Positions 6,052 through 24,949 are shown, numbered from the stretch's first letter. The stretch: DNA of 64,000 nt from an uncultured bacterium (GCA_903869825.1 CAIQAL010000016.1:34269-98268), one strand, 5' to 3'. Translations and numbers: made by a program. The notes: generated from the sequence alone by a model not told the origin.

Positions 6052-6056
6052 AGGAT

Positions 6057-6605: not shown

Positions 6606-6609
6606 TTTT

Positions 6610-8126: not shown

Positions 8127-8292
8127 AAGTAAACTTACGATGGGAGCTTTACCAATCGAGATAAAGATAGGTTATCCCAATTAGAAGAAAAAAGTGAAAA
8201 CAAATAAATAAAAATTTTTTGCTTTCCCGAGCGTAGAATAATTCTAACACTAAATTCATCAATTCTTAATTGAGTTAGGGTATAATACATTA

Positions 8293-9969: not shown

Positions 9970-9975
9970 AAGTTC

Positions 9976-12601: not shown

Positions 12602-13799
12602 GAGCGGGTAATTCTTTCCCAGCTAAAAACTCAAGAGTAGCTCCTCCGGCCAAACTAATATGAGAATAATTTTCTAAATTTCCATTTTTTCGAAAAGTAT
12701 CTATCGTATCTCCTCCAGCAATAATTGTTTCTCCAACAACCTCTTTCATTGCATCAATTACTGTTTGGGAACCTGGTAAAAATCTTGAGTCTCCAGCTTT
12801 GCCCATCGGGCCATTTATAAAAACTGTTTTCGACTTCAAAATAATATCGTAGAATTTTTTTCTTGTTTCCGGACCAATATCAAGAGCCATCCATTCGCTT
12901 GGTACTCCCTCCTTCGTAATATCAATTATTTTTGTTTCCTTCCCATCAGAAATAACTACATCAGTAGGAATAATCACTTCTTTACCAAGGGATTCCGCCA
13001 ACGACAGAATGGACTTGGCTTCCTCTACCCAATCTTTTTTTTCGCGTTTTACTTTGTCGACAAAAACATCTTCAACAAAAGAACTTCCAAGTTCTCTACC
13101 TTGTGCTTTCAAAAAAACATTCGCCACTGCTCCCCCAACCAAAATCGTGTCCGCCATTTTTAGCAAATTACGAATTGCTTCAACCTTATCGGAAATTTTT
13201 GCCCCCCCAATTATCACCGTAAATGGCCTCCCGGGATTTTCCAACAAACCCGAGAGCATCGCCACTTCTTTTTCCAAATATAGTCCTGCGACTGCCGGCA
13301 GATGTCTTTCAATTCCTGTAGTTGAAGAATGCATCCGGTGTGCTTGGGGAAAACCATCAAAAACAATCAAATCTTTTCCTTCGCAAAGTTCTTTCGAGAA
13401 AGCATCGTCATCCGTCATTTCTTCGGCATGAAACCGCACGTTTTCAAGCATTAAAATATCACCCGACTTCATTTCTGAAATCTTCTCAGCAATTACAGAG
13501 CCAATACAATCATCAACTTTTTCTACCGGCTTGTTTAACAATTCAGAAAGTCTCTTTGCGTGAGGATTGGTTTTAAATTTTTCCACTATTTTCCCGTCAG
13601 GCCGACCCACATAAAATAAGATTACGATTTTACAATTTTCTTTTAATAAATATTCCAAGGTTGGTAAAGTCGCCCGGATACGCATATCATCGGAAACTTC
13701 CAAGACCCCATTTTTTTCTATCACATCAATATCATAAGGAGCACGGTAAAGAATCGTTTTTTCTGTAACCTCCATCTCCTTTAAATTTCTTAATTTCAT
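12585..13799 (-). CDS. pgk: Phosphoglycerate kinase
   Basis: 404 aa. The N-terminal substrate-binding region (RIRATLPTLEYL, YVGRPDG) and the Gly-rich nucleotide loop are typical of PGK. Confidence 0.85.
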   Translation of the reverse strand: MKLRNLKEMEVTEKTILYRAPYDIDVIEKNGVLEVSDDMRIRATLPTLEYLLKENCKIVILFYVGRPDGKIVEKFKTNPHAKRLSELLNKPVEKVDDCIGSVIAEKISEMKSGDILMLENVRFHAEEMTDDDAFSKELCEGKDLIVFDGFPQAHRMHSSTTGIERHLPAVAGLYLEKEVAMLSGLLENPGRPFTVIIGGAKISDKVEAIRNLLKMADTILVGGAVANVFLKAQGRELGSSFVEDVFVDKVKREKKDWVEEAKSILSLAESLGKEVIIPTDVVISDGKETKIIDITKEGVPSEWMALDIGPETRKKFYDIILKSKTVFINGPMGKAGDSRFLPGSQTVIDAMKEVVGETIIAGGDTIDTFRKNGNLENYSHISLAGGATLEFLAGKELPALKALE

Positions 13800-13802
13800 A
13801 TA

Positions 13803-14558
13803 TTACAAACTTTCCGCTATTTTAATAATTTCTGAAAACTTCTCAGGGTTCAAGCTCGCCGCACCGGTTAATACCCCCTCCGCTCCCCCGTCCTTCAGGA
13901 ATCCTAAAACACTTTTTTCATTTACGGAACCACCGTAAATAATTCTAGGCATTTTTGTTTTGACACCAAACTTATCAGATAAAATCTTTTTGATAAAAAT
14001 CACCATTTCGTGCGAATCAGCCGGAGTTGCATCTCTTCGTTCTAGGGTAGTAGAGAGGGCCCACACTGGCTCATAAGCAATCACCAATTTTCCAAGCGAC
14101 TCTTTATTTATCCCGTTCAAGCATTCTTTAACCTGTGTTTTCACCACTTCAAAATACTCGTGGTTTTCATCCCGCTCCGTTTCTCCCACGCAGACTATTG
14201 GCTTCAGCCCAAAAAAGAGTGCTGCTTTAATTTTTTTATTTATCTCAGCATTTGTTTCCCCAAGCTTCCGTCTTTCCGAGTGTCCAATAATCACATACTC
14301 TGCTTTGAGATTGACCAACATTGGGGCGGAAATTTCTCCAGTAAAAGCCCCTCGCTCTTCATAAAAAACATCTTGAGCACCGAGTTTAAATTTCTTAGAA
14401 ATTTTATTCAATTTCTCCAAGTACAAAAAAGGCGGGCAAACTACTACTTCGATTTTTTTGAAATTACTTTTATTTGCAACCTTGGTGAGTAGTGCTTCCG
14501 CTTCTTTGAGAGATACCGGATTCATTTTCCAATTAGCAACAATAATTTTTTTAGACAT
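13803..14558 (-). CDS. tpiA: Triosephosphate isomerase
   Basis: 251 aa with IVANWKMN, IIGHSERR and AYEPVWA motifs. Confidence 0.9.
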   Translation of the reverse strand: MSKKIIVANWKMNPVSLKEAEALLTKVANKSNFKKIEVVVCPPFLYLEKLNKISKKFKLGAQDVFYEERGAFTGEISAPMLVNLKAEYVIIGHSERRKLGETNAEINKKIKAALFFGLKPIVCVGETERDENHEYFEVVKTQVKECLNGINKESLGKLVIAYEPVWALSTTLERRDATPADSHEMVIFIKKILSDKFGVKTKMPRIIYGGSVNEKSVLGFLKDGGAEGVLTGAASLNPEKFSEIIKIAESL

Positions 14559-14577: not shown

Positions 14578-15903
14578 CTAATTTGTTTCTTTCCAGCCTG
14601 CCAAACCCCAGCCACCTGATGGACCACTTTGGAATTCCGGGCTCGCCAATCCTTGGTCATAACTTACCGTACTTCCCCCTGTTACCGAGATAGTTTTCCC
14701 GGTCGCAGAATTTATTGTGATTCCTCCGCTTAGGGCAACCTTTCCTGATTGAGCACACACTGCGATTGCTCCAGATCCTGCAGTAACAGTTAGCGCATTA
14801 TTGTTGCTACCAGACAAACCACAACCTGAACTACTTCCAGAACAAGTATTCGTGGTGACCACAAAAAGATAACTCCCTGGTGCTCCGGAACCAGTGTAAC
14901 TGCCTCCACTTAAGACAACTTGGCCATCAGTAACAATGGTTGCGCTGTATTGGTTAAAATTTGATGGCAATTTGATTGAGCCTCCTCCTGAAACCGTTAT
15001 CGTCCCCATTACATAGATAGTCCCCGTCAAAGTAAGAGTTCCCCCACCGTCAACAACCAGGTTCCCGGTTATTTTACCTGGACCGAAAGTGGCATTCGCC
15101 CAATCAACGTGACAATTACCACCACTGTATCCGCCGTGACAATTTGTAGCACCAGTAATTATCCCACCGGCTGTTCCTTCCGCTTTCCATTCATTAATAT
15201 TTTCATCAGTAAAAGGCATATCAATCGCTGGTGGAATTCCTTTCGAGGTATTACAAACTTTATTTGTGTTAGCTTTTACTTGGCAATACAAATTACCAGC
15301 CACATTTGCCCCGACCACTTTGTATGCCCAGGCATCACCCACCCCCGATGTCCCAATCGTTACCGGATCATTTGGATTCGCATTATCTCCGATAAAGGAA
15401 GCGCCTCCGGCAGCAATCGCCGTGCCGGTTATTTTGTTGTTAGCTTGAATGTTCCCGTTTGAATAGACATTTCCAATAATTTTAGATCCTCCGTCAAGAA
15501 TAAACCCACCATTCCCGGATTGAATTCCGTAATTGAATCCAACCCCGGCTCCTTCTTGGAGAATCATATCTACCTTTCTTTGAAAATTTTTAACACTTCC
15601 GAGAGAAATTATTTCTTTCTGATTAACGGTAGTAGTAATGTTAGTGGTAGTAGTATTTGAATCAAGCGTAATCGTTTCACTAGTTCCAATATTTTTACCA
15701 GCTAAAATACGATACATCGCATCTTCCGCCCCAGACTCAGACAAAAAGTACGATTTTTTTGAATTTAAATTTTCTGCAACAGATTGTACTTCTCGTACTG
15801 AAGGAGAGACTAATCCTGAAATAATTGCCAAAGAAATGAAAAGAAAAAAGACTACCATTATCAACATCGCTGCCCCGCCATTTGTTTTTATTTTTTGTTT
15901 CAT
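14578..15903 (-). CDS. Gly/Thr-rich secreted protein with an N-terminal transmembrane anchor, associated with the pilus operon
   Basis: 441 aa. The N-terminal hydrophobic segment KTNGGAAMLIMVVFFLF resembles a degenerate prepilin leader lacking Glu at +5. The remainder is Gly/Thr/Asn-rich (beta-rich, adhesin-like). It is the last gene of the pilB-pilC-pilin array. Confidence 0.5.
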   Translation of the reverse strand: MKQKIKTNGGAAMLIMVVFFLFISLAIISGLVSPSVREVQSVAENLNSKKSYFLSESGAEDAMYRILAGKNIGTSETITLDSNTTTTNITTTVNQKEIISLGSVKNFQRKVDMILQEGAGVGFNYGIQSGNGGFILDGGSKIIGNVYSNGNIQANNKITGTAIAAGGASFIGDNANPNDPVTIGTSGVGDAWAYKVVGANVAGNLYCQVKANTNKVCNTSKGIPPAIDMPFTDENINEWKAEGTAGGIITGATNCHGGYSGGNCHVDWANATFGPGKITGNLVVDGGGTLTLTGTIYVMGTITVSGGGSIKLPSNFNQYSATIVTDGQVVLSGGSYTGSGAPGSYLFVVTTNTCSGSSSGCGLSGSNNNALTVTAGSGAIAVCAQSGKVALSGGITINSATGKTISVTGGSTVSYDQGLASPEFQSGPSGGWGLAGWKETN

Positions 15904-15912
15904 TTTTTTTAA

Positions 15913-16419
15913 TTAATAACTTCCCCGTAAAACAACAGTATCATAAAAATCAAAATTCCTCGTCTGAACGTCATCTGCCGCCTGAATAGTAAGAACAATC
16001 TTCAATGCTTGCCCGTTTGGGTCCGTCAATTGAGTAAAGGTAAGACTTTGCACTTTTATGTTCGGGCCATTCAAATTACCGGCAACGGTACTATTTTCAA
16101 GTAGACTGATGTTATTTCCCGTGAAGTTAAACTCAACGGTTTTATTTGCTCCAGCATCATCTTTTGTGTCGAGCTTCAAATAGTTCGTGCCCGTAAGAGT
16201 CTCAATATGGTATGCCCCTCTTATTTCACGGGAAATTCTTTCCAATATTTCTGAGGCCTGTGCAATTTCTCTTTGCACTTTTGTTTCTTTAAAAGATTTA
16301 GTCATCACAATCATCGCATTAATTACCGCAATCGAAACTATGACAAAAATAACAACATAAAAAAGAGTTTCAATAATCGAGGCTCCCTTATTCAATTGTT
16401 TATTTTTTTTACTAGTCAT
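15913..16419 (-). CDS. Type IV minor pilin / pseudopilin
   Basis: Prepilin leader ...KG|ASIIETLFYVVIFVIV with Glu at +5. Confidence 0.7.
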   Translation of the reverse strand: MTSKKNKQLNKGASIIETLFYVVIFVIVSIAVINAMIVMTKSFKETKVQREIAQASEILERISREIRGAYHIETLTGTNYLKLDTKDDAGANKTVEFNFTGNNISLLENSTVAGNLNGPNIKVQSLTFTQLTDPNGQALKIVLTIQAADDVQTRNFDFYDTVVLRGSY

Positions 16420-16898
16420 TAAAAAATATTTAATATGTAAAACTTCAAGTATTTAGACATCGTTTGGCCACCTTCGACCCAAGAAACAGTCACCGTTATA
16501 AGTTTTGTCCCTGGGTCATCTGTACCACTCCCTGAAATATCATCAGTCCCAGCGACTCGATTCACTGCTGCAATATTTATTTTCCTTGTAAAAATACCAA
16601 CCTGCGAACTGGTCGTGGGTAAAGTCCAAGCCCCAGCGGAATAAGTTGGATAATAGGAAGTAGCCGTATTTAAGCTTGAAATATTTGTCCAGTTTGTATC
16701 TCGAATAATTCTAACTGCTTCCGCTCCTTCCTCTAAAAGAAAATTCGCTTGAGTCATATGGAGCGCTTGTTTAGACACGCTGATTGCTCGGTTTGAAACC
16801 GCCATGCAAGCAAAAATGGATGTGGTAATAATCGCAATCGCTACTACCACTTCGACCATCATAAATCCATTATTCTTTTTTTTAAATAAATTTTTCAC
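16419..16898 (-). CDS. Type IV minor pilin / pseudopilin
   Basis: Prepilin leader ...NG|FMMVEVVVAIAII with Glu at +5. Confidence 0.7.
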   Translation of the reverse strand: MKNLFKKKNNGFMMVEVVVAIAIITTSIFACMAVSNRAISVSKQALHMTQANFLLEEGAEAVRIIRDTNWTNISSLNTATSYYPTYSAGAWTLPTTSSQVGIFTRKINIAAVNRVAGTDDISGSGTDDPGTKLITVTVSWVEGGQTMSKYLKFYILNIF

Positions 16899-16900
16899 TT

Positions 16901-17368
16901 TTAATTTACACTAAGCGACCCGGTAGCTGAAATAGTAATCGTCTTTGTTAAATTGGAATCTCCGGCAATCGAAACCACTACTGAGCCATTTTTATTGGGC
17001 GTGCCACTTTGCCGATTAAAGTAAAAATCAGTGCCCCCTCCTGATAAGCTTATGGTTGAAATACTTGCAGGAGAAATAATGTCTATTATTTCATTATTTG
17101 CATCATTAGACACATAAGAAGTCCCTCTAAAAATTATAATCTTATCAACCTGAAAATGAATACCGTAATTGTATGAATCAAGCGAAGCCAGAGTTTCAGA
17201 CTTCGCTTTATTTGAAGCAGAGATAATATCTTCTGAAGCATTTTTTAAAACTTGAGTTTGTTTTATCTTGACCAGCTGCGGGTACACAACCCTTGCCAGA
17301 ATTCCAACGACTGCGATTACAATTATAATTTCCAAAATCGTTATTCCTTTTTTGTAAAAATTTTTCAT
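16901..17368 (-). CDS. Type IV pilin (probable major pilin)
   Basis: Prepilin leader MKNFYKKG|ITILEIIIVIAVVGILA. It is the first pilin after pilC. Confidence 0.7.
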   Translation of the reverse strand: MKNFYKKGITILEIIIVIAVVGILARVVYPQLVKIKQTQVLKNASEDIISASNKAKSETLASLDSYNYGIHFQVDKIIIFRGTSYVSNDANNEIIDIISPASISTISLSGGGTDFYFNRQSGTPNKNGSVVVSIAGDSNLTKTITISATGSLSVN

Positions 17369-18585
17369 TATTTTATATTATTCATCACCGAGTAAAGCGG
17401 AGTAATTATAGAAAGTGCAAAAAAGCCAACCGCACTTCCAATTATAATCATCAAAAATGGTTCAATAATTGTCGAAAGATTTTTGGTTCTACTCTCGATT
17501 TCTTCTTCATAAAACAATGCAACTTGCAGAAGCATGTCTGAAAGCTTTCCTGTTTCTTCTCCTACCTGTACCATCTCCGCCATCATTACCGGGTACAATT
17601 TAGGGCTAGAAATAAAAACTTCGGAAAAAGGAGCCCCTTTCTCAATCGCGGTTTTTGCTTCCTTCAAAACATTTTTGTAGTAAACATTCTGAACCACATT
17701 TTCGGTAATTTCAATTGATCTGACAATCGGAACTCCAGATAAAAGAAGTGAAGAAATCGTGCGAGCAGTCCTGGCAGTGTTCAATTCTTTTGCCATATTG
17801 CCGATTGCCGGAATTTGAAGAACGATATAGTCAACATACTTCGCCAAAAAACTAGCTCTTGCCAAACACCACATTCCCCCAACAAATATGATAATGAAAG
17901 TTAGTGCCAAGATTAAATGATGAGAAAAAAAATCTCCTAAAAAAATAATAAATTTTGTCGAAGCAGGCAAAGCGGCTCCCACGTCTTTAAATGTCTTGGC
18001 AAGCGTCGGCACCACGAATGCAAGCATCAATATTCCAATCAATACCATGGCCGAAAGAATGACCGCTGGATAAATCAGCGCTCCTTTTACTTTTTTTGTT
18101 AAAGCATGGGATTTTTCCAAGTTTGCCCCTACTTCCGATAGCGCTCCAGCTAAATTTCCTGATTCTTCTCCTGCTTGAACCATCGATACGAATAATTTTG
18201 AAAAAATATTTGGATATTTTGCCAGTCCCGACGACAACGTTCCTCCAGAATTTATTTCATCCCCAAAAGCAGTTAAGACTTCGTTAAATTTTTGATTTTT
18301 TGTTTGTTTTTTTAAAACGGATATTGCTCTAGAGAGAGAAAGACCGGCTTTTATCATTCCGCTTAAATTTTTTGTGAAAATAATTTGGTCTTGCACCCCA
18401 ACTTTTCCAAAAATTTTCTGAAACACTTTGTCTACACTAAAAATATTTTCCTTTTGTTCCCAAATATGAGTAGGAACACTCCCTCGTGAACGAAGTTCCC
18501 GAGAAAGGGCAAACTTATCGACTGATTCGAGAACTCCTTCAATTACTTTCCCTTCCTTTGTTTTTGCTTTGTAAAAAAAATTCAT
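17368..18585 (-). CDS. pilC: Type IV pilus assembly platform protein PilC (GspF family)
   Basis: 405 aa with two GspF-type repeats and three transmembrane segments. Sits between pilB and the pilins. Confidence 0.8.
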   Translation of the reverse strand: MNFFYKAKTKEGKVIEGVLESVDKFALSRELRSRGSVPTHIWEQKENIFSVDKVFQKIFGKVGVQDQIIFTKNLSGMIKAGLSLSRAISVLKKQTKNQKFNEVLTAFGDEINSGGTLSSGLAKYPNIFSKLFVSMVQAGEESGNLAGALSEVGANLEKSHALTKKVKGALIYPAVILSAMVLIGILMLAFVVPTLAKTFKDVGAALPASTKFIIFLGDFFSHHLILALTFIIIFVGGMWCLARASFLAKYVDYIVLQIPAIGNMAKELNTARTARTISSLLLSGVPIVRSIEITENVVQNVYYKNVLKEAKTAIEKGAPFSEVFISSPKLYPVMMAEMVQVGEETGKLSDMLLQVALFYEEEIESRTKNLSTIIEPFLMIIIGSAVGFFALSIITPLYSVMNNIK

Positions 18586-18599
18586 ATTTTTTAAAACCT

Positions 18600-20348
18600 T
18601 TACTCCGAAACTACTCGCAATACTTCTTCCAAGGAAGTATATCCTTCCACCGCTTTTAGGATACCATCTTCGAGCATTGTAGACATTCCTTCTTTCTTTG
18701 CTTGTTCTTCTATTTGGTCTTGAGAACTACCCCGAATAATTAACTCTTTAATACTGGAAGTCACCTTTAGTACTTCATGAATTCCAATGCGACCCGAATA
18801 TCCCAAATTATTGTCACTCCCTTTAACCGGCTTATAAAAAGGAACTTCTGCCCAAGTATCTTTTGGACCAATTGCTTTTTCAGTTTTAAGGAGAGCTAGC
18901 ACTCTTTCTAGATTAACAATTTTCTCCAAATTTTTTAACTCCGCATCGATTAAAAAATATTTTTCTTTCTCAGCAGTAAGTTTTCGAACAAGTCTCTGAG
19001 CGATAATAGTTTTGACGGTTGAAATTAATAAAAATGGTTCCACTTTCATATCAATCAATCTTGGGATAGCCCCAGCGGCCGAGTTCGTATGAATGGTCGA
19101 AAGTACCAAGTGCCCGGTTAGTGATGCATTCACCGCGAGGGCTGCTGTTTCGGTATCCCGGATTTCTCCAACCATTATTATATCGGGGTCTTGTCGAAGA
19201 AGAGTACGTAAGCCGTTGGCAAAAGTCATCCCGATTTCTGAGCGAACCTGAGTTTGATTTACTCTTGGCATCTGATACTCGATTGGGTCTTCAATGGTTG
19301 AAATATTTACTTCCGGACGATTTAAAATATCAAGCATCGTATATAGCGTAGTGGTTTTACCTGAACCAGTTGGACCAGTTGCTAAAATCATACCAATTTT
19401 TTGTTTCAAAGATTCATGAATTCTTTCCAAACCTTCACCGTGAAAACCAATCGTTTCAAGAGAAAGGCCATGAGAATTTTCTTTCAAAATTCTTATAACC
19501 GTTTTTTCTCCATAATAAGTCGGTAAGGTTGAAACACGAAAAGAAATTTTTTCACCATTCTGCTCTATTTTAAATCTTCCGTCCTGGGGCAATCTTTTTT
19601 CGTCCAATTTTAAATTTGAAAGAACTTTGATACGGGCAGTGATCCCTGGCGCAGCATTCTTATCCAAAATCATCGCGTCGTGCAATATTCCATCGATTCG
19701 ATACCGAACAGTCAATTCTGTTTCTCCCGGTTCGATATGAATATCGGAAGCATTTTGCAAAATTGCATGGAAGACAAGTGAGTCAACAATCTTCACCACC
19801 GGCAAATCTTCCGCCATTTCTTTTAACTCTTCTTCCGATTTTTCTCCTTCATCTTTTGAAACTGTTTTTATTGAAGAAGTCTCTTTTTGGATAATGTTAT
19901 CGAACTCCGCTTGTAAGCTTTTCCTATATAGCACCAGGGCTGACTTGATAGAATTTGAGTCAGTAAGGCGTGGTAAAATTTTTAAACCGGATCTTTTTTT
20001 AATAAAATCAGTTACTGCAATATCATCTACGTCGAGCATTGCAACTTCAAGTCCTGTATCACTTTTTTTATATGCAATAATATTATGATTTCGTGCAATT
20101 GGTTCCGGTATTAGCGAAAGAATCGCAATATCTATTTTTTGATTGGCTAAGTTTACAAAAGGAATCCCAAGAACGAATGCTTCCATTCTCCTTAAGTCTG
20201 CTTCGGAAATTTTTCCACTCGAAAGCAAGACGTCTCCGAACTTTTGTTTTTTTTCTTTGGCTATTTTTACCGCTTCTTCCAAATCATCCCGAGAAATAAG
20301 TTTTGACTCAAGGATAAATTTTTTTAATTGATCTTCGTCAATTTCCAT
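18600..20348 (-). CDS. pilB: Type IV pilus assembly ATPase PilB (GspE family)
   Basis: 582 aa with Walker A LATGPTGSGKTTTLY, Asp/His boxes and an N-terminal GSPII-type domain. Confidence 0.85.
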   Translation of the reverse strand: MEIDEDQLKKFILESKLISRDDLEEAVKIAKEKKQKFGDVLLSSGKISEADLRRMEAFVLGIPFVNLANQKIDIAILSLIPEPIARNHNIIAYKKSDTGLEVAMLDVDDIAVTDFIKKRSGLKILPRLTDSNSIKSALVLYRKSLQAEFDNIIQKETSSIKTVSKDEGEKSEEELKEMAEDLPVVKIVDSLVFHAILQNASDIHIEPGETELTVRYRIDGILHDAMILDKNAAPGITARIKVLSNLKLDEKRLPQDGRFKIEQNGEKISFRVSTLPTYYGEKTVIRILKENSHGLSLETIGFHGEGLERIHESLKQKIGMILATGPTGSGKTTTLYTMLDILNRPEVNISTIEDPIEYQMPRVNQTQVRSEIGMTFANGLRTLLRQDPDIIMVGEIRDTETAALAVNASLTGHLVLSTIHTNSAAGAIPRLIDMKVEPFLLISTVKTIIAQRLVRKLTAEKEKYFLIDAELKNLEKIVNLERVLALLKTEKAIGPKDTWAEVPFYKPVKGSDNNLGYSGRIGIHEVLKVTSSIKELIIRGSSQDQIEEQAKKEGMSTMLEDGILKAVEGYTSLEEVLRVVSE

Positions 20349-20413
20349 ATATACAGTATACCAAAAAATTCCCTAGTTAGGGAATTTTTTGGTACGTAAA
20401 TTATAAATAATTT

Positions 20414-23400
20414 TTATCTTTCAAACCATTTTATAACTTTTTTGTAGATGCAAGGAGCTGGTTCCCCGTTGTTCGTCGCTTTCGGGTCAATACAGTTTCC
20501 TCCGCCATCAACATTGCACTGTGGCGGATTAACGGCACCATTTATACATTGATCACAAGTTGGGTAAGGAGTTAGGCCGGCTGGGCAGTGCCCTCCCAAA
20601 CCAGGTTGGGTACCAGGTTGGGTACATGATGCATTTGACCCGGTAGGTGAACCAAGACATTCCCAAGTCCAGCCATTTGTTGAATCTCCTGTTCCCTTCG
20701 CGCTATTTCCTTTTACGCAACCATAGTGACCTTGAGCACATTCGGCATTAACCTTTTTATCAGTACAAATCCTTTCATCCCAGAAAGTTTTATTCTCACA
20801 ACTTGAAGTTATAGTCTTTAAATCAAGTGTCACATTATTGTTGAGAAGTCTAAACGTCGAAGTATCATGCGGAATAGTTAATTTCCCTTGTCCTGGATTT
20901 CCCGTTCCGACTACCCCTACCATTTCTTGGACAACTTCCGTGGTAGCTCCTTGTGGATTAATTACACTCCAGACAAAATGCATCAAGCAATCGCTTCCAT
21001 TGAGGGGGATAATGCAAGACAGTGCATCAGGAGTCAAAATTCCGGTCATTCCTCCGATTACATTAAACGATGCCCAGTTACTACAGTTATTTGTTTCATT
21101 TGACTCAGGAACCATCGCCGGTGGAATAGTATTTCGATTAGTTTTGTCAGCACAGACCCGACCATAGTACGTTCCTGGCACGCTAAAGGTATAAGTTGTT
21201 GACATGGTATCACTTCCGCCGGCAGCAAGAGCCAGCATCGAGACTGCTGGAAGGTCCACTAGTCTCCCTGTTCCGTTTACTCCAGTTGAAAATTGAGCAA
21301 AGTTTTTAAAGATTGTTCCAGCTGCTCCAGTTCCCACCGGCCCGAGGTTGGTGATGGTTGAGACAAAAGAAGTAGGGCTATTGATAGCAATAGGAAGTTT
21401 TTTTGCTGATGGAACGCTTGCAATAAGATCGGGTAGTTTCGTTGGAGCGGTTACCGTTATCGGGGTCCAAGGACTAGCACAATTGTTTCCTTCGTTTGAT
21501 TCTGTTACTTCTGCTGGAAGGACAGTACTCGGGCTAGTTTTGTCAGCACAAGCCCGTGCATAGTAAGTTCCTGGAGAAGTGAAGGTACATAGGTAACTTA
21601 GAGTACCACTCGCGCCTGCCGCAAGAGTAATCATTGATGTCCCCGGAAAAGTCGCGTAACAAGATGGAAGGCTTCCTCCTCCTGTTCCACCAGAAGCAAT
21701 CGCTTCTCCCGGGAAGAAAATGGTAGCCAGCATTTTTTTATACTTTTCCAAGAAACCTGTATTTCCATTCCCATTTCCAGGATTGTAATTTAGAACTTGA
21801 ATAAAATTATGAAATGAATTACCAGTCGTATTATTCCCGATATTTGTGATTTGAGCGGCAAGAGTAACCGAATCGTTGGCCGCAACTGTAGTTGGAGTTA
21901 CTTGGCCTGCTACTAAGTCTGGTTTCGGCCCAGAAGGAGTGACAGTAACGGTTGTCCAGTCGCCACAGTTATTTCCCTCGTTTGTTAATTCATTTACTTC
22001 GTCTGGTGGAGTGGAAACGTGACTGGTATTACGATTGTATTTATCGGCACAAGCTCGTACCCACCACATTCCAGCTGTCGTAAATGTATATTTTGGATAA
22101 GTTATGCTGATAGTTTCTCCAGCCGCAAGTGCTGACGTAACGGGAATAGCAGGAGAAAGATCCTGGATTCCTGTTAAGGCATACGCCTTATTAAATATTT
22201 TATCAAAAATATTTTTTGGAGAATTGTAACCAAGTAGTGGAGGAGTTGGGTCAGTGTCGGTAACTTGGAAAAAGTTATGGAACCCGTTTCCAGTTGGCAG
22301 AGTTCCAACATTTCTGATCGTTGCAATCAGATCAGTCTTGACACCAAATATTACTGAACTCGGAGTGGACGGATCAGCCGTCAAGTCCGGGGCGTTCGGA
22401 ACGGTCACAGCAACAGTCGCATGATCAGTACCACTCCCTACGGGATTTGAATCAGTAGCGGTAAAAGTAAAGTTTCCAGCGCTTTGGAAAGGGCCAGCGA
22501 CAAATATAAAAGGATTTTGTGATTGACAATTTAGGGTGGAAAACCCTGGAAAACTAGAAACCACTTGGCAAGTATCACTATCGGGGTGCTCTACAGAAAA
22601 TTGAAGTGTCATGCCAGTCTTAATGTTATTATTTTGGGGTGTGATAATAACTGTCGGCGGATAGATATCATTAAAATTAATGTTAATTGTCCCATACGAC
22701 CACAATTCAGTAACCTGACTGGCTTGTGCTCCATTAGTCAAAGAAGAAATAAATTGCCCCAACCTACCAAAAAGACCATCCGACTTTGCAAGGTTATTTT
22801 TTTTGGGCAAAGCACTGAGATACTTAACACATGCTGCATTGTATGTGTGTATTCCTGCCTGTGAGGAGTTCTCATATTGAATTGCGACAGAACCCGAAGC
22901 TGTCCCATCTGACAAAATTGTATTTCCTTCTTTAATAGTACAGTTATCTGCTGTCAGATTTGTATCCCAGCTTATATTTGTCGTCTGGTTCAGAGAAACA
23001 GGATTTAAGTCCGCTGACATACTCACTATTGGAGGATTTGCCCCATTTCCCCCGCCACCGCCACCGCCACCGCCACAACCTGCCCCTACTGTGTAAGGAA
23101 TAGTAAGTGAACCATCATAACCTCCGTAGTCTGGTGACCACTTAAAATAGACGGTCATATTATAGCAGCCATCAATCGATGGAGCCAAAAAATTAGAATC
23201 TGTTGTTGTTGTCCAGGCTACATCACAACCACCAGAATTACACGCTGTATTATATTCTCCTTCTAGTCCGTTAAATGTGACTTTCACAGGAGGACCAATT
23301 ATTCCAAGGTAACCACTCGCGGTTTGTCGCAATCTTACATCCATTTGCTCTCCTGCAGTATAATTACTCTTATTCATTAAGACATAACCGGAACAATGAG

Positions 23401-23620
23401 CTACAGTGTACCCTTGGGATGCAAAATAGCCACATTCAGCGTCAGTGTAATTAGTTTGAGATGCTTTGGCTAAATTGATTGGAACACCAAACCCAAATAA
23501 AGCGAGAAAGAAAACGACGGAGAAAATTTTTATTAAAAAAAGAGCACCATTTGAATTTGAATTTTTTGTTTCAGATTCTTTTTTTAAAACAGTACCAAAA
23601 AAGATTGATAGTTTCTTCAT
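20414..23620 (-). CDS. Giant secreted surface protein with three CARDB-like domains, a poly-Gly linker and a Cys-rich C-terminal module
   Basis: 1068 aa with an N-terminal signal/transmembrane segment. Three repeats end ...ACADKTNRNT..P.EV.ESNEGNNC, matching the CARDB C-terminal EsnEtNN signature. Contains GGGGGGGGGNG. The C-terminal 100 aa are Cys-rich. Confidence 0.65.
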   Translation of the reverse strand: MKKLSIFFGTVLKKESETKNSNSNGALFLIKIFSVVFFLALFGFGVPINLAKASQTNYTDAECGYFASQGYTVAHCSGYVLMNKSNYTAGEQMDVRLRQTASGYLGIIGPPVKVTFNGLEGEYNTACNSGGCDVAWTTTTDSNFLAPSIDGCYNMTVYFKWSPDYGGYDGSLTIPYTVGAGCGGGGGGGGGNGANPPIVSMSADLNPVSLNQTTNISWDTNLTADNCTIKEGNTILSDGTASGSVAIQYENSSQAGIHTYNAACVKYLSALPKKNNLAKSDGLFGRLGQFISSLTNGAQASQVTELWSYGTININFNDIYPPTVIITPQNNNIKTGMTLQFSVEHPDSDTCQVVSSFPGFSTLNCQSQNPFIFVAGPFQSAGNFTFTATDSNPVGSGTDHATVAVTVPNAPDLTADPSTPSSVIFGVKTDLIATIRNVGTLPTGNGFHNFFQVTDTDPTPPLLGYNSPKNIFDKIFNKAYALTGIQDLSPAIPVTSALAAGETISITYPKYTFTTAGMWWVRACADKYNRNTSHVSTPPDEVNELTNEGNNCGDWTTVTVTPSGPKPDLVAGQVTPTTVAANDSVTLAAQITNIGNNTTGNSFHNFIQVLNYNPGNGNGNTGFLEKYKKMLATIFFPGEAIASGGTGGGSLPSCYATFPGTSMITLAAGASGTLSYLCTFTSPGTYYARACADKTSPSTVLPAEVTESNEGNNCASPWTPITVTAPTKLPDLIASVPSAKKLPIAINSPTSFVSTITNLGPVGTGAAGTIFKNFAQFSTGVNGTGRLVDLPAVSMLALAAGGSDTMSTTYTFSVPGTYYGRVCADKTNRNTIPPAMVPESNETNNCSNWASFNVIGGMTGILTPDALSCIIPLNGSDCLMHFVWSVINPQGATTEVVQEMVGVVGTGNPGQGKLTIPHDTSTFRLLNNNVTLDLKTITSSCENKTFWDERICTDKKVNAECAQGHYGCVKGNSAKGTGDSTNGWTWECLGSPTGSNASCTQPGTQPGLGGHCPAGLTPYPTCDQCINGAVNPPQCNVDGGGNCIDPKATNNGEPAPCIYKKVIKWFER

Positions 23621-23770
23621 AAGAGATAAATTAATAAATATTAATAATAATGTTTTTAAAACACACTCCTTTAAATAATAACATATTCTATCGAAGTTGA
23701 TAAAGAAGTGTTAATAACTAAATAAAAAAATAGGCCTCTTCTGTAAAAGAAGGGCCTAGATATTTTAGAA

Positions 23771-24790
23771 TCACTTTTTAAGATTAAGAACGGCTGGTCC
23801 GAAGGTCATTTTAATGTAACCTAGGTTACCAGGACATCCAAATGAAGGGCAGAGTAACTTCAACATCATAGATGCGGAGTTCATTACCATAATTCGGTAC
23901 ACTCCTCCTCCCCAATCAATGGTATCACCATTGATAGTGTAATTGCCCCAATTTGTGTGAACACCGTATCGGTAAGAGTCAAATGTTCCATTAGAATTGA
24001 ATACCGTTTTGGTATCCAGGTCTTTTTGCTGAACAGTCGTAGGTGTCCAATAACCACCTTCGTCTCCAGAACAACTGGAAACAGCACTGGTTTCGCTCCA
24101 TGGATGGCTGTGAATGGTGTCGTTATAGTTAGATGGCGGCGGTGGAACAACAGTCACCTTCGTGCTATCTTCATCAGTACCAACACTGTTTCCTGCAAAA
24201 ACATGGAAGGTGGTGGTCTGATTGACAGATCTTTGGTATTGTCCGGGCTTGTTTACGTCGGAAATTTCAGGTGATGAGACAAAAGTATAGTCTCCTTCAA
24301 CAAGGATTATCACTGTAACGGTGTTACCAGAATCAGTGCGATCCGGAGTTACCGTTATTGTAACTTTTGGTTTAACCATATCAATAATGTCGGCATGCTT
24401 TGCAATAATGCTGGCTGTCTTTTTAAGATTTTCATTACCTTTTTTAATAAAGGTAAGAGAAATATCAGTGTTGGCAGCAATCGGCATGGAAACGAAATTA
24501 CCGCTCCCTGTCTTCTTGAAGGTTTCTGACCCAATAATCAGAAGAAGGGTGTCCGCATTTGAATTCCATTTCAAATGGAAAGATGTTCCAACTTTCATTG
24601 TGTCAATCATGTTTTCAGTGAAAGTCTTTCCATTGAGAGTTACCGAACTAACGGTAAGTGGGTCGACCACGGATGGTCCAATCGGGTCTTCTTTCTTGCA
24701 TCCGAAAAAAATCATCAGGACGCAAAGGGCAAGATACTTACTCAGGTCACGCCTGAGCGTTTCTTTCCTGTGCAACTTCTTGCTATTCAT
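23771..24790 (-). CDS. Putative lipoprotein
   Basis: 339 aa. Signal peptide with lipobox ...LMIFFGC|KKED. Predicted beta-rich. Sits directly upstream of and co-directional with the CARDB protein gene. Confidence 0.5.
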   Translation of the reverse strand: MNSKKLHRKETLRRDLSKYLALCVLMIFFGCKKEDPIGPSVVDPLTVSSVTLNGKTFTENMIDTMKVGTSFHLKWNSNADTLLLIIGSETFKKTGSGNFVSMPIAANTDISLTFIKKGNENLKKTASIIAKHADIIDMVKPKVTITVTPDRTDSGNTVTVIILVEGDYTFVSSPEISDVNKPGQYQRSVNQTTTFHVFAGNSVGTDEDSTKVTVVPPPPSNYNDTIHSHPWSETSAVSSCSGDEGGYWTPTTVQQKDLDTKTVFNSNGTFDSYRYGVHTNWGNYTINGDTIDWGGGVYRIMVMNSASMMLKLLCPSFGCPGNLGYIKMTFGPAVLNLKK

Positions 24791-24949
24791 ATTTTTTCAG
24801 TTTATTTGGTTTTTCAAAAAGGTTAATTGCTTTATTTAACAGCCTTTAATAGCTAAGGTAACCAAATAAAGCAATTCACCTTGACAAGACACACTATTCG
24901 TATTGAATTATAGGACTTTATACAATTATTGTCAATAAAGTTATCCCCT

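What the first reader, a model, noticed from the sequence alone, without database searches (positions are those of the whole stretch)
14578..24790. Type IV pilus locus coupled to a 1068-aa CARDB-repeat surface protein, a lipoprotein and a 441-aa Gly/Thr-rich anchored protein
Seven co-directional minus-strand genes run lipoprotein, CARDB giant, pilB, pilC, and three prepilins with Glu at +5. The 441-aa Gly/Thr-rich protein follows directly, 9 nt after the last prepilin. Its N-terminus resembles a degenerate prepilin leader without Glu at +5, and it may be a pilus-tip or minor-pilin-like adhesin. The 1068-aa protein carries three CARDB-like repeats (each ending ESNEGNNC), a Gly9 linker and a Cys-rich C-terminal module. 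No PilD, PilM/N/O or PilT is in the window. The CARDB gene and the 441-aa gene are visibly more GC-rich than their neighbours. The tight linkage suggests a pilus-associated adhesion or DNA-uptake apparatus with dedicated surface adhesins.
Basis: partly seen in the sequence, partly recalled or inferred. Interest (0 to 1): 0.6.

Follow-up and report, generated by a model that had tools for sequence, protein, structure and literature searches.

The report
Patescibacterial pilus operon with variable adhesins
This is the conserved type IV pilus operon of an ultrasmall (Paceibacteria) bacterium: its 441-aa gene is predicted to be the pilus-tip cap pilin carrying a beta-solenoid binding module, and the giant CARDB protein and lipoprotein beside it are fast-evolving surface proteins in a variable slot that appear to be transcribed separately.

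Summary
In detail: eight co-directional minus-strand genes sit at the stated coordinates.

- **Pilus genes.** PilB and PilC match their Pfam families strongly. Three prepilins carry Gly(-1) and Glu(+5).
- **441-aa protein (g441).** It belongs to a family of more than 630 proteins. Gly(-1) is conserved and +5 is never Glu. The AlphaFold model (pLDDT 84) shows a pilin fold plus a beta-solenoid. Its best solved-structure match is Thermus ComZ, a GspK-like tip pilin. I read it as the cap of a four-pilin priming/tip complex.
- **Conservation.** pilB-pilC-3 pilins-g441-tpiA-pgk recurs in 23 related loci. Sixteen others hold a different three-gene pilin cassette in the same slot, and the two types are interleaved on a PilB+PilC tree.
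- **CARDB giant and lipoprotein.** They occupy a hypervariable nusA-pilB slot (97 bp to 7 kb). The exact lipoprotein-giant-pilB order recurs only in a subclade. Elsewhere other mosaic giants fill the slot.
- **Transcription.** Predicted terminator hairpins, and a conserved extended -10 promoter 6-8 nt before the pilB ATG, argue for three separate transcription units.
- **GC content.** The extra GC is amino-acid composition (GC2), not foreign DNA.
- **Missing parts.** No PilD, PilT or PilMNO lies in the window.

Verdict: a new member of a known kind, of moderate interest.

The parts
24907..24935 (-). Promoter-like site upstream of lipo339 (TTGACA-17-TATAAT, 12 of 12)
   Evidence: Consensus scan. 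It is a pattern match only.
23771..24790 (-). lipo339: predicted lipoprotein of a small, divergent Patescibacteria family with no Pfam or NCBIfam model
   Evidence: No family hit. Full HMMER finds 44 cluster representatives. Cys31 is invariant and Gly30 nearly invariant. Six of seven informative family contexts lie in the nusA-pilB slot.
23723..23758 (-). Predicted intrinsic terminator after lipo339: GC-rich hairpin followed by U7
   Evidence: Fold of -15.1 kcal/mol, z = -3.6, with 0 of 200 shuffles folding as well. Sequence read.
23685..23714 (-). Promoter-like site upstream of CARDB1068 (TTAACA-18-TAGAAT, 10 of 12)
   Evidence: Consensus scan.
20414..23620 (-). CARDB1068: secreted or anchored mosaic surface protein. 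Signal/TM about residues 26-54; unique N-terminal region 55-400 with Gly9 at 183-191; three CARDB repeats at about 405-856 (nt 21053-22408); module M at 857-1005 (nt 20606-21052); Cys-rich tail at 1006-1068.
   Evidence: Pfam CARDB in three stretches. Only 4 partial relatives among 5.8 billion proteins. Module M occurs in 22 slot proteins from 18 loci, and CARDB repeats in 10 proteins from 8 loci. The N-terminal region is about 40% identical to the giants that follow lipoproteins in L083, L084 and L087. The AF2 model is poor (pLDDT 43), except the CARDB repeats.
20358..20395 (-). 17-bp perfect hairpin flanked by an A-tract and a T-tract, between CARDB1068 and pilB: a predicted terminator/insulator
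   Evidence: Fold of -22.9 kcal/mol, z = -7.95. An equivalent hairpin occurs in at least 18 of 34 related loci, with 15 different stems that all keep pairing.
20355..20363 (-). Extended -10 promoter element TGgTATACT, ending 6 nt before the pilB ATG, which predicts a leaderless or near-leaderless pilB mRNA
   Evidence: Sequence. A TATAAT/TATACT/TACAAT hexamer occurs in 33 of 34 loci, with a TG extension in 28 and a 6-8 nt distance to the ATG in 28. It is also present in L024, which has no slot genes.
18600..20348 (-). pilB: pilus assembly ATPase (MshEN N-terminal domain plus T2SSE ATPase, Walker A GPTGSGKT)
   Evidence: Pfam T2SSE 5e-123 and MshEN 4e-11. NCBIfam PilB scores 519 bits and GspE 512 bits, both below the equivalog cut-offs. 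It is 74-87% identical in close relatives.
17368..18585 (-). pilC: inner-membrane platform protein (two T2SSF domains)
   Evidence: Pfam T2SSF 9e-56 in two stretches. NCBIfam GspF/PilC 1e-95 to 1e-78, below cut-offs.
16901..17368 (-). pil155: prepilin with canonical T4a alpha1 (G-1, E5, G14, P22). Either a FimU/GspH-like minor pilin or, less likely, the major pilin.
   Evidence: TIGR02532 scores 17.2 against a cut-off of 16.3. The GspG and GspH N-terminal hits fall below cut-off. The family profile matches only the alpha1-N of solved pilins, down to 9e-10.
16419..16898 (-). pil159: prepilin, PilV/GspI-like by a weak N-terminal match
   Evidence: G|FMMVE. PilV 2.6e-6 and GspI 0.011, both below cut-offs. 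No informative PDB match.
15913..16419 (-). pil168: prepilin of unresolved class (the PilW/GspJ position by gene order only)
   Evidence: G|ASIIE. Only weak ComGE-type hits. No informative PDB match.
Pilin module residues 1-120 (nt 15544-15903): leader ending in Gly10, alpha1 at 9-67, 4-stranded sheet at 75-117. Beta-solenoid at about 127-414, with a conserved C-terminal strand at 432-440 (nt 14581-15543).
   Evidence: AF2 pLDDT 84. Foldseek best hits are ComZ 6qvi (6e-7, probability 1.0), then DUF3494 ice-binding proteins. 632 homologues were found, some named PilX by JGI. Gly(-1) is present in 56 of 56 and +5 is never Glu. Pfam DUF5649 scores 26.5 bits against a cut-off of 25. Conserved after three prepilins in 23 loci.
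12585..14558 (-). tpiA (13803-14558) and pgk (12585-13799): glycolytic genes directly downstream, probably read through from the pilus operon
   Evidence: Gaps of 19 nt and 3 nt, with no hairpin in the g441-tpiA gap (-1.4 kcal/mol, z = -0.4). The adjacency is conserved in 39 loci.

Best explanation
**Organism and operon.** The region belongs to a Patescibacteria (class Paceibacteria, Nomurabacteria-like) genome. It holds that clade's conserved pilB-pilC-minor-pilin operon.

**How the pilus part works.**
- PilB (ATPase) and PilC (platform) drive pilus assembly (shown by family matches).
- The four pilin-like genes downstream encode the priming/tip complex. This follows established knowledge of GspH-I-J-K, FimU-PilV-W-X and Thermus PilA1-A2-A3-ComZ (inferred from gene order and fold).
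- g441 is the GspK/PilX/ComZ-class subunit. It keeps Gly(-1) for prepilin peptidase but has no Glu5, as expected for the first subunit of a filament, which has no preceding N-terminus to pair with (inferred).
- Its predicted pilin module carries a rigid beta-solenoid of about 290 residues. That is too bulky for the fibre body, so it should sit on the tip as the ligand-binding module (inferred).
- In an episymbiont the ligand is most likely a host-cell surface structure.
- The major pilin, PilD, PilM/N/O and any PilT must be encoded elsewhere. A second, complete locus type of this sort exists in Paceibacteria (L051).

**The flanking genes.**
- CARDB1068 (Sec-type signal) and lipo339 (lipobox) are fast-evolving, modular cell-surface proteins.
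- They sit in a hypervariable slot between nusA and pilB.
- Each has its own predicted promoter and terminator. pilB has its own conserved extended -10, leaderless-type promoter.
- They are therefore positionally linked to the pilus operon but not part of its transcription unit (predicted).
- Their most likely role is host contact or adhesion, co-inherited with the pilus specificity genes.
For: **Machinery.** PilB and PilC match their Pfam families strongly.

**Prepilins.** Three carry G(-1)/E5 and a hydrophobic alpha1.

**g441**
- Confident model: a 59-residue N-terminal helix, a 4-stranded sheet and a beta-solenoid.
- The top three PDB matches are ComZ chains (E 6e-7 to 4e-5). The next are ice-binding proteins, including FfIBP 4nu2. 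This is the same pair of resemblances published for ComZ, whose pilin domain is GspK-like (PMC6561018).
- Gly(-1) is present in 56 of 56 family members and +5 is always I, V, L or T.
- Precedent in Patescibacteria: TM7x PilX1 and PilX2 are large minor pilins with accessory domains and no predicted PilD signal. PilX2 is needed for host binding (PMC11623550).

**Synteny**
- pilB-pilC-pil155-pil159-pil168-g441-tpiA-pgk recurs in 23 loci.
- 16 loci hold an alternative cassette whose last member (485 aa) shares N-terminal motifs with g441.

**Variable slot**
- The nusA-pilB gap runs from 97 bp to 7146 bp, with 0-4 co-directional ORFs.
- 40 slot proteins plus CARDB1068 form one mosaic network. Module M and the CARDB repeats are shuffled among them.
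- CARDB1068 has only 4 partial relatives, while PilB stays 74-87% identical.
- The order lipoprotein-giant-pilB recurs in a subclade.

**Separate transcription units**
- Hairpins of -15.1 and -22.9 kcal/mol (z = -3.6 and -8.0) follow lipo339 and CARDB1068.
- The hairpin plus TGnTATAAT element before pilB is conserved, with compensatory stem changes.
Against: - No sequence-level homology of g441 to ComZ, GspK or Pfam PilX_N was found.
- The ComZ match has a low TM-score (0.27).
- The model coordinates could not be inspected. I could not check that the C-terminal strand rejoins the pilin sheet as it does in ComZ.
- The classes of the three small prepilins are unresolved. pil155 could be the major pilin.
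- Promoters and terminators are predictions. Read-through from the giant into pilB is not excluded.
- Co-occurrence of a complete second T4P locus in the same genome was not shown.
- The N- and C-terminal regions of CARDB1068 remain structurally unknown, so its function is inferred from architecture and context only.
Confidence: 0.68

Rival explanations
1. The operon builds a competence (DNA-uptake) pilus, and g441 is a ComZ-like tip DNA receptor. Patescibacteria lack nucleotide synthesis and depend on DNA scavenging.
For: ComZ, the best structural match, binds DNA and is essential for transformation in Thermus (PMC6561018). The gene order of three small pilins followed by a large solenoid pilin mirrors pilA1-A2-A3-comZ. 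No retraction ATPase is encoded in the locus.
Against: The resemblance is in fold only, with no sequence homology. The same solenoid fold occurs in non-DNA-binding ice-binding proteins. The globular part of g441 is acidic (pI 5.4; family median 4.95). 25 of 63 homologues carry an inserted choice-of-anchor R domain, and the whole cassette is swapped between close relatives. That fits a variable receptor better than DNA as ligand. In TM7x, T4P-2 pilin mutants kept normal competence (PMC11623550).
Confidence: 0.2
2. The CARDB giant, with the lipoprotein, is a functional pilus partner. It would be a PilY1-like non-pilin adhesin that docks on the g441-capped tip, or a cargo displayed or secreted by this machine. 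The slot plus the pilin cassette would together form a host-specificity island.
For: A mosaic giant lies immediately upstream of pilB, co-directional with it, in about 19-24 of 29 informative close-relative loci. The lipoprotein-giant-pilB order is kept in a subclade although the sequences have diverged to 30-40% identity. Within the 64-kb window, these modules occur only here.
Against: There is no PilY1/Neisseria_PilC domain, or any domain other than CARDB. The slot is empty in L024 and in distant Paceibacteria that keep the full operon. A conserved terminator-like hairpin and a separate pilB promoter insulate the units. Mobile elements occur in the slot and near distant lipoprotein paralogues.
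Confidence: 0.12
3. The linkage of the CARDB giant and the lipoprotein to the pilus operon is functionally meaningless. The nusA-pilB intergenic region would simply be a recombination/insertion hot spot that collects fast-evolving surface-protein genes.
For: The slot size ranges from 97 bp to 7 kb with unrelated contents. An IS200-type transposase lies in the slot in L090. Distant lipoprotein paralogues lie in an integrase/R-M island. lipo339 has a raised GC3 of 0.41. The transcription units are predicted to be separate.
Against: The occupants are not random genes. They are overwhelmingly co-directional secreted proteins from one mosaic network (41 of 66 collected ORFs). The lipoprotein-giant pair persists at this exact place through deep sequence divergence.
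Confidence: 0.3
4. g441 is not a pilin. It would be a signal-anchored beta-helix adhesin that merely shares an operon with the pilins.
For: It has no Glu5. No prepilin motif model (N_methyl, PilX_N) matches it. Some sources name homologues as autotransporter adhesin or bactofilin-like.
Against: The predicted fold has a 59-residue alpha1 plus a 4-stranded sheet before the solenoid, and ComZ is the best match. A basic leader ending in an invariant Gly directly precedes the hydrophobic helix. Absence of Glu5 is the known signature of GspK-class cap pseudopilins (established knowledge). In both cassette types the large protein is always the last gene after the prepilins.
Confidence: 0.1

Closest known systems
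ComZ of Thermus thermophilus HB27 (PDB 6QVI), in the pilA1-pilA2-pilA3-comZ-pilA4 locus
   Same: Both have a GspK-like pilin module fused to a large beta-solenoid that resembles DUF3494 ice-binding proteins. Both are encoded after several small minor pilins. Both are too bulky for the fibre body, hence tip-located. ComZ is the best Foldseek match to g441 (E 6e-7; PMC6561018).
   Different: No detectable sequence homology. The TM-score is low (0.27). g441 is shorter than the ComZ chains (441 aa against about 500-520). The organism is presumably a monoderm without a secretin. DNA binding is untested. No major pilin gene follows g441; tpiA-pgk does.
PilX1 and PilX2 of Nanosynbacter lyticus TM7x (Saccharibacteria T4P-1 and T4P-2)
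   Same: These are Patescibacteria minor pilins that are the largest in their loci. They carry accessory domains on a pilin stalk and are not recognised as PilD substrates by predictors. PilX2 is needed for host binding. One TM7x locus lacks PilT and PilD and relies on another (PMC11623550).
   Different: The accessory domains differ: beta-jelly-roll and 7-bladed beta-propeller in TM7x, against a beta-solenoid here. The class and locus organisation also differ: here pilB-pilC-pilins sit between nusA and tpiA, without pilMNO.
GspK / PilX core minor (pseudo)pilins of T2SS and T4aP (GspHIJK, FimU-PilVWX)
   Same: g441 is the fourth and largest gene of a four-pilin cluster. It has a class III-type leader with Gly(-1) but no Glu5, and a proposed cap position that primes assembly.
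   Different: Pfam PilX_N and the GspK models do not match it. The extra domain is a solenoid, not the alpha-helical insertion of GspK. H/I/J assignments for the three small pilins rest on gene order and weak N-terminal hits only.
Modular minor pilins of Streptococcus sanguinis (PilB with a vWA module, PilC with a lectin module)
   Same: The principle is the same: an adhesive module grafted onto a pilin module in a monoderm T4P (PMC8179133, listed). The type-B cassette's 452-aa prepilin with CarboxypepD_reg domains is another example.
   Different: The S. sanguinis modular pilins keep a canonical prepilin motif with Glu5, and their modules are different.
Allelic minor-pilin/pilin islands of Pseudomonas aeruginosa (own knowledge, not checked here)
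   Same: Alternative, non-homologous pilin gene sets occupy the same chromosomal position in close relatives.
   Different: Here the two cassettes differ in gene number and orientation and are interleaved on the PilB+PilC tree. No tRNA-linked island structure was seen.

Membership tests
Type IV pilus / type IV filament assembly system | PilB/GspE-family assembly ATPase | tested here: met
   Pfam T2SSE 5e-123 plus MshEN. NCBIfam PilB scores 519.5 bits and GspE 511.6 bits. Both are below the equivalog cut-offs (675 and 630), so it is a divergent member.
Type IV pilus / type IV filament assembly system | PilC/GspF platform protein with two T2SSF domains | tested here: met
   Pfam T2SSF 9e-56 in two stretches.
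Type IV pilus / type IV filament assembly system | Pilins with a class III signal (short basic leader, Gly-1, Glu+5, hydrophobic alpha1) | tested here: met
   Three ORFs read G|ITILE, G|FMMVE and G|ASIIE. TIGR02532 is above its cut-off for pil155. Pfam N_methyl falls below the gathering score for all three. The pil155 profile matches alpha1-N of solved pilins at 9e-10.
Type IV pilus / type IV filament assembly system | Prepilin peptidase PilD (Peptidase_A24) | tested here: inconclusive
   None was recognised in the 64-kb window. This rests on Pfam for ORFs at 72-11640 and on reading the translations for the rest. The rest of the genome is not available. A different Paceibacteria locus type (L051) encodes PilD.
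Type IV pilus / type IV filament assembly system | PilM/N/O alignment proteins and PilT retraction ATPase (T4aP) | tested here: inconclusive
   The only T2SSE-type ATPase in the window is PilB. None of the loci of this operon type has a second ATPase within 10 kb either side. L051 has PilM, PilO and PilT. Co-occurrence in one genome is not shown.
Type IV pilus / type IV filament assembly system | Identified major pilin | tested here: inconclusive
   pil155 has G14 and P22 like T4a major pilins. However, type-B loci have no small pilin in the slot, which suggests the major pilin lies elsewhere.
GspK / PilX / ComZ-class tip (cap) minor pilin (for g441) | Class III-type leader with Gly(-1) but no Glu5 | tested here: met
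   Gly10 is present in 56 of 56 aligned homologues. Position +5 is I, V, L or T and never E.
GspK / PilX / ComZ-class tip (cap) minor pilin (for g441) | Pilin fold (long N-terminal helix packed on an antiparallel sheet) carrying a large extra domain | tested here: met
   AF2 model with pLDDT 84: helix 9-67, strands 75-117, then a beta-solenoid. Foldseek's best hits are ComZ 6qvi, E 6e-7. This is a prediction, not a solved structure.
GspK / PilX / ComZ-class tip (cap) minor pilin (for g441) | Encoded last in a cluster of minor pilin genes | tested here: met
   The order pil155-pil159-pil168-g441 holds in the window and in 23 loci.
GspK / PilX / ComZ-class tip (cap) minor pilin (for g441) | Sequence membership in Pfam PilX_N, the GspK models, or homology to ComZ | tested here: not met
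   No such Pfam or NCBIfam hit, even at E up to 10 on the pilin module alone. The family profile does not find ComZ or GspK among PDB sequences. g441 is therefore not filed as a member, only as working like one.
GspK / PilX / ComZ-class tip (cap) minor pilin (for g441) | Tip location, complex with partner minor pilins, ligand (DNA or host) binding | not testable with these tools
   This needs biochemistry, cryo-ET or multimer modelling.
CARDB-domain cell-surface proteins (PF07705) (for CARDB1068) | CARDB Ig-like repeats above the Pfam gathering score | tested here: met
   59.4 bits against a cut-off of 22.7, in three stretches. These are the only parts of the AF2 model with pLDDT 60-80.
PilY1-type non-pilin tip adhesin (considered for CARDB1068) | C-terminal PilY1/Neisseria_PilC beta-propeller domain; gene inside the minor-pilin cluster | tested here: not met
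   No such domain in Pfam or NCBIfam. The gene lies upstream of pilB, behind a terminator-like hairpin. The C-terminal region is not modelled.
Bacterial lipoproteins (for lipo339) | Signal peptide ending in a lipobox with an invariant Cys | tested here: met
   The N-terminus reads MNSKKLHRKETLRRDLSKYLALCVLMIFFG|C. Cys31 is invariant, and Gly30 and Lys33 are at least 90% conserved in 22 homologues. The -3 residue (Phe) is atypical. The presence of Lgt/LspA was not tested.

The most novel reading that the evidence does not exclude
The nusA-pilB slot (hypervariable M/CARDB-module giants, with or without a lipoprotein) and the swappable pilC-tpiA minor-pilin cassette (type A with a ComZ-like solenoid cap, or type B with a modular 452-aa pilin and a 485-aa cap) together form a host-range 'specificity island' around an otherwise conserved pilus motor. 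The giants would be physically pilus-associated, either docking on the cap pilin like PilY1 or being displayed by the machine. Exchange of these modules between lineages would then re-target episymbiotic Paceibacteria to new hosts.
Probability: 0.12. Interest if true: 0.7.

Novelty: new member of a known kind. Interest (0 to 1): 0.42.

Why it matters
Paceibacteria are among the most abundant uncultivated ultrasmall bacteria, and how they recognise hosts is unknown. This analysis gives concrete candidates:

- a widespread, uncharacterised family (more than 630 members) of ComZ-like solenoid cap pilins;
- two alternative minor-pilin cassettes that have been swapped repeatedly at one chromosomal position;
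- a hypervariable slot of mosaic surface giants next to the pilus motor.

These are testable determinants of host specificity or DNA capture, and they extend the TM7x PilX paradigm to another class. None of it changes the known logic of type IV pili.

Tried and rejected
**Ideas tested and rejected**
- A second T4P cluster at the left end of the window (a 582-aa ORF plus small ORFs at 72-7854). Pfam shows ArgRS, dUTPase, NUDIX, Tmk, EamA, CYTH and SHMT.
- Foreign origin of g441 and CARDB1068 because of their higher GC. GC3 equals the neighbours' and the excess is in GC2.
- lipo339 as an orphan. tblastn at 1e-5 found nothing in 80 loci, but full HMMER found 44 cluster representatives and syntenic copies. 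The first screen was too insensitive.

**Searches that gave nothing useful**
- The g441 family profile against PDB sequences found no ComZ, GspK or PilX.
- Pfam on the pilin modules alone at E up to 10 gave no PilX_N.
- Profiles of pil159 and pil168 against PDB were uninformative.
- AF2 of CARDB1068 with 5 sequences gave pLDDT 43. The N- and C-terminal regions were not modelled, so I ran no fold search on it.
- A homologue search with CARDB1068 residues 51-400 returned no hits, not even the protein itself.

**Tools or data unavailable**
- Attempts to identify the source contig, or to walk beyond the window, failed.
- Several lipoprotein homologues sit on contigs too short to be informative.

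**Limits of the consensus scan**
- The terminator scan missed both intergenic hairpins. I found them by reading the sequence and folding it.

Full report
**1. What is there**

- PilB (18600-20348) matches Pfam T2SSE at 5e-123 and has an MshEN N-domain. PilC (17368-18585) matches T2SSF at 9e-56. Against NCBI's curated equivalogs both score high but below cut-off, for example PilB at 519 bits against 675. They are divergent members of the type IV filament families.
- Three small ORFs are prepilins: G|ITILE, G|FMMVE and G|ASIIE, each followed by a hydrophobic helix.
- The 1068-aa protein has three Pfam CARDB stretches (59.4 bits, cut-off 22.7). It also has a Gly9 run at residues 183-191, 32 cysteines, and repeat ends ELTNEGNNC, ESNEGNNC and ESNETNNC.
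- The 339-aa protein has no family model. Its family shows an invariant Cys31 after Gly30, which fits a lipoprotein signal.
- The string does not stop at the 441-aa gene. tpiA and pgk follow after 19 and 3 nt.
- Nearest relatives are all Patescibacteria MAGs labelled Nomurabacteria, Paceibacterota or Paceibacteria.

**2. Nothing else of the pilus machinery is in the window**
- The left-end cluster, which superficially resembled a second locus, is housekeeping.
- Across the window, the only T2SSE-type Walker A is PilB's, and only three ORFs have an E5 prepilin N-terminus.
- The remaining translations read as trigger factor, ClpP, RNase Y, LexA, PNPase, XerC and similar (by eye, not HMM-tested).
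- A different Paceibacteria locus type does encode PilM, PilO, PilB, PilT, PilC, pilins and PilD (L051; its PilC is only 31% identical).
- This parallels Saccharibacteria TM7x, where one locus has the full machinery and others lack PilT and PilD (PMC11623550).
- I could not show that both types occur in one genome.

**3. The 441-aa protein (g441)**
- It has 632 homologues at E <= 1e-3. They fall into a short form of about 413-469 aa and a long form of about 577-621 aa. A few are named 'Tfp pilus assembly protein PilX' by JGI, or 'choice-of-anchor R domain' by NCBI.
- In a 63-sequence alignment, the Gly preceding the hydrophobic segment is present in all 56 sequences that cover it. The +5 position is I, V, L or T and never Glu.
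- The AlphaFold2 model is confident (pLDDT 84). It shows a helix at 9-67, a four-stranded sheet at 75-117, a beta-helix at about 127-414, and a conserved C-terminal strand at 432-440.
- Foldseek against the PDB puts the three chains of Thermus thermophilus ComZ (6QVI) first (E 6e-7 to 4e-5, probability 1.0). DUF3494 ice-binding proteins follow, including FfIBP 4NU2.
- The ComZ paper describes the same two resemblances. ComZ has a GspK-like pilin domain with an FfIBP-like beta-solenoid inserted before the last strand. The authors argue on steric grounds that it sits at the pilus tip and acts with PilA2 as a DNA receptor (PMC6561018).
- The similarity is at the fold level only. TM-scores are about 0.27. 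The family profile finds neither ComZ nor GspK among PDB sequences. Pfam PilX_N does not match even at E up to 10.
- I therefore say that g441 works like a GspK/PilX/ComZ-class cap pilin. I do not file it in any of those sequence families.
- Twenty-five of 63 homologues carry an insertion of about 160 residues at position 176/177. In P0054 this matches NCBIfam choice_anch_R at 4e-11. The window's protein is the short form.

**4. Is the operon conserved?**

Anchoring on PilC, I fetched 80 loci from species-representative genomes.
- 39 contain both pilC and tpiA. In 23 of these the order is pilB-pilC-pil155-pil159-pil168-g441-tpiA-pgk.

| Protein | Identity to the window in these loci |
|---|---|
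| PilB | 74-87% |
| PilC | 62-72% |
| Small pilins | about 40-64% |
| g441 | 34-62% |

- The other 16 loci lack all four genes. In the same slot they hold a different three-gene cassette: a 452-aa prepilin with CarboxypepD_reg domains, a 205-aa prepilin, and a 485-aa protein.
- The 485-aa protein's N-terminal 140 residues align weakly with the g441 family (hhalign E 0.002, probability 14%). Shared motifs are AESGxEDAxYR against SAEAGIEYYR, QRK, and GNVYSNGxI against GPIHSNGGI.
- This cassette is inverted in close relatives and forward in more distant ones.
- On a neighbour-joining tree of PilB+PilC the two types are interleaved, for example L008_A with L016_B, L014_A with L017_B, and L038_A with L036_B. 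The cassette has therefore been exchanged repeatedly. The tree has no support values.
- g441 is thus an integral, conserved part of one of two alternative minor-pilin sets.

**5. The CARDB giant and the lipoprotein**

*Evidence for a variable slot*
- A first tblastn screen found no lipo339 homologue in any of the 80 loci, and only partial matches (8-41% coverage, about 30% identity) to CARDB1068 upstream of pilB.
- The nusA-pilB gap ranges from 97 bp with no gene (L024) to 7146 bp with up to four co-directional ORFs. In distant Paceibacteria (L034, L036, L040, L043) nusA abuts pilB.
- CARDB1068 has only four partial relatives among 5.8 billion proteins.

*Evidence that the occupants are not random*
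- 40 slot ORFs from about 27 loci, plus CARDB1068, form one blastp network.
- Module M (residues 857-1005) occurs in 22 slot proteins from 18 loci. CARDB-like repeats occur in 10 proteins from 8 loci.
- Of 29 close-relative loci with enough upstream sequence, 19 have M and/or CARDB modules in the ORF immediately upstream of pilB, and 24 have a network member there.

*Evidence from the protein side*
- The best CARDB1068 relative, P0122, lies in nusA | 253 aa | 1122 aa | pilB | pilC | 160 | 171 | 168 | 619 | tpiA | pgk. Its 253-aa neighbour shares lipo339's lipoprotein N-terminus (E 4e-12).
- Full HMMER finds 44 cluster representatives of the lipoprotein family.
- P0127 (36% identical) lies in nusA | lipoprotein | CARDB giant of 1135 aa | pilB | pilC | 155 | 163 | 169 | 458....
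- In L083 and L084 the order is nusA | lipoprotein | a protein about 40% identical to CARDB1068 residues 31-300. In L087 the same giant N-terminus follows the lipoprotein.
- In L090 the order is nusA | IS200-type transposase | lipoprotein | contig end.
- Only a distant pair of paralogues (26-29% identical) lies elsewhere, in an integrase and restriction-modification island.
- Six of seven informative contexts therefore place the lipoprotein in this slot.

In the wider clade it generalises to 'some mosaic giant upstream of pilB'. It is not universal.

**6. Are they co-expressed?**
- Reading the intergenic DNA shows a GC-rich hairpin plus U7 right after the lipo339 stop (-15.1 kcal/mol, z = -3.6). 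A 17-bp perfect hairpin flanked by A- and T-tracts follows the CARDB1068 stop (-22.9 kcal/mol, z = -7.95).
- The consensus scan finds a perfect TTGACA-17-TATAAT upstream of lipo339 and a 10/12 site upstream of CARDB1068.
- Directly after the second hairpin lies TGgTATACT, ending 6 nt before the pilB ATG.
- Across 34 related loci, a TATAAT/TATACT/TACAAT hexamer is present in 33. It has a TG extension in 28 and lies 6-8 nt from the ATG in 28.
- At least 18 loci have the A-tract/stem/loop/stem'/T-tract hairpin. There are 15 different stems, all retaining perfect pairing.
- L024, which has no slot gene, keeps the -10 element and lacks the hairpin.
- This pattern predicts a leaderless or near-leaderless pilB mRNA from its own promoter, insulated from whatever lies upstream.
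- By contrast, the g441-tpiA gap has no structure (-1.4 kcal/mol).
- The predicted units are lipo339 | CARDB1068 | pilB-pilC-pil155-pil159-pil168-g441(-tpiA-pgk). These are predictions, and read-through is possible.

**7. GC content**

Both g441 and CARDB1068 are 0.428 GC, against 0.35-0.39 for the pil genes. Their GC3 (0.33 and 0.32) equals that of the neighbours (0.30-0.34). The excess is in GC2 (0.50), which reflects 37% Gly+Ala+Pro+Thr. Only lipo339 has a raised GC3 (0.41).

**8. Mechanism (most likely)**
- *Shown:* a PilB/PilC motor, three E5 prepilins, a conserved operon, and family-wide leader features of g441.
- *Inferred from fold, gene order and established GspHIJK, FimU-PilVWX and ComZ biology:* the four pilin-like proteins form the priming/tip complex. 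g441 lacks Glu5 because a first subunit has no partner N-terminus to neutralise, so it caps the fibre. It presents its beta-solenoid along the fibre axis as the binding module.
- *Ligand:* in TM7x the analogous PilX2 is required for efficient host binding (PMC11623550), so I favour a host-surface ligand. The ComZ resemblance keeps DNA capture as the main rival. The acidic ectodomain (pI 5.4; family median 4.95) and the modular variability of the family weigh mildly against it.
- *Flanking proteins:* the giant and the lipoprotein are exported, disulfide-rich, module-shuffled surface proteins. Their persistent position next to the motor suggests a shared role in host contact, but nothing here shows physical or regulatory coupling.

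**9. Comparison and novelty**
- The closest known systems are the Thermus pilA1-3/comZ locus, the TM7x PilX1 and PilX2 minor pilins, GspK/PilX cap pilins, and the modular pilins of Streptococcus sanguinis.
- No paper in the searchable library connects ComZ-like pilins with Patescibacteria. Paceibacteria studies mention pili only generically.
- The g441 family, the A/B cassette dimorphism, and the hypervariable giant slot with its conserved terminator-promoter junction appear undescribed in that library. All are variations on known themes: modular tip pilins, allelic pilin islands, and variable adhesin loci.
- I rate this a new member of a known kind, with interest 0.42.

**10. Limits**
- The CARDB1068 structure could not be predicted usefully.
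- Two fold libraries were unavailable.
- The source contig could not be retrieved.
- The classes of the three small pilins are unresolved.
- All transcription signals are computational.

Noticed in passing
L016:10237-13669 (minus strand); the same slot in L004, L011, L015, L017, L018, L020, L021, L024, L028, L031, L034, L036, L037, L043 and L067: An alternative three-gene minor-pilin cassette replaces the window's four-gene cassette between pilC and tpiA. It holds a 452-aa prepilin with CarboxypepD_reg domains, a 205-aa prepilin and a 485-aa PilX-like protein. The two types are interleaved on a PilB+PilC NJ tree, which implies repeated cassette exchange.
   Followed up: partly
window 20355-20395 (minus strand), and the 75 nt upstream of pilB in 34 related loci: A conserved composite element: an A-tract/GC-stem/loop/stem'/T-tract hairpin (15 distinct compensating stems) fused to an extended -10 box TGnTATAAT 6-8 nt before the pilB ATG. 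It predicts a leaderless pilB mRNA insulated from the upstream gene.
   Followed up: yes
window 12585-14558 (minus strand): tpiA and pgk directly follow the pilus operon (19-nt and 3-nt gaps, no terminator-like structure). This adjacency is kept in 39 Paceibacteria loci, whichever pilin cassette is present.
   Followed up: partly
L051:4052-13849: A second, complete Paceibacteria T4P locus type: PilM, a PilN-like ORF, PilO, PilB, PilT, PilC, two pilins, PilD and another pilin. Its PilC is only 31% identical to the window's. It is a candidate source of the parts missing from the window's locus, by analogy with TM7x T4P-1 and T4P-2. Co-occurrence in one genome is not shown.
   Followed up: partly
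L016:5668-7185, L016:4423-5655 and L016:971-4417; also slot proteins of L018, L022, L026 and L030: Many slot proteins in other loci share an N-terminus of the form TM segment followed by A(W/F)TxPxxxPPxGNxxxPIN. It may be an unrecognised sorting or processing signal. CARDB1068 does not have it.
   Followed up: no
L090:8013-8732; L088:7977-10011: An IS200-type (Y1_Tnp) transposase sits between nusA and the lipoprotein gene in L090. Distant lipoprotein paralogues lie as a tandem pair in an island with integrases, RadC and restriction-modification genes in L088. lipo339 itself has a raised GC3 (0.41). Together these hint at mobility of this gene family.
   Followed up: partly
P0054 residues 200-331, and 25 of 63 g441 homologues: Long-form g441 homologues carry an insertion of about 160 aa at the position of window residues 176/177. 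In P0054 this matches the NCBIfam choice-of-anchor R domain (4e-11). It is a second layer of modular variation in the cap pilin.
   Followed up: partly
window 18600-20348 (PilB N-terminus, residues 12-54): The PilB N-terminus scores 36.2 bits against a cut-off of 38 on the MshE-type c-di-GMP-binding motif model NF053729. This hints at nucleotide second-messenger control of pilus assembly.
   Followed up: no
window 57457-60348 (+): A 963-aa coiled-coil-like protein with a long internal duplication: the block DEAAAQEKISLEEQEKKEAERKLREEQEKSGALRASEMDAE occurs twice. Its function is unknown.
   Followed up: no
window 33615-35171 (-) and 45486-46160 (+): A 518-aa Cys-rich protein with many CxxC pairs and no obvious family. 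Also a 224-aa secreted protein with an FN3-like motif (TYYFRAVARNNSGTARG) and a C-terminal TM anchor. By eye it resembles motifs in slot proteins of other loci, but tblastn of the slot proteins did not hit it.
   Followed up: no
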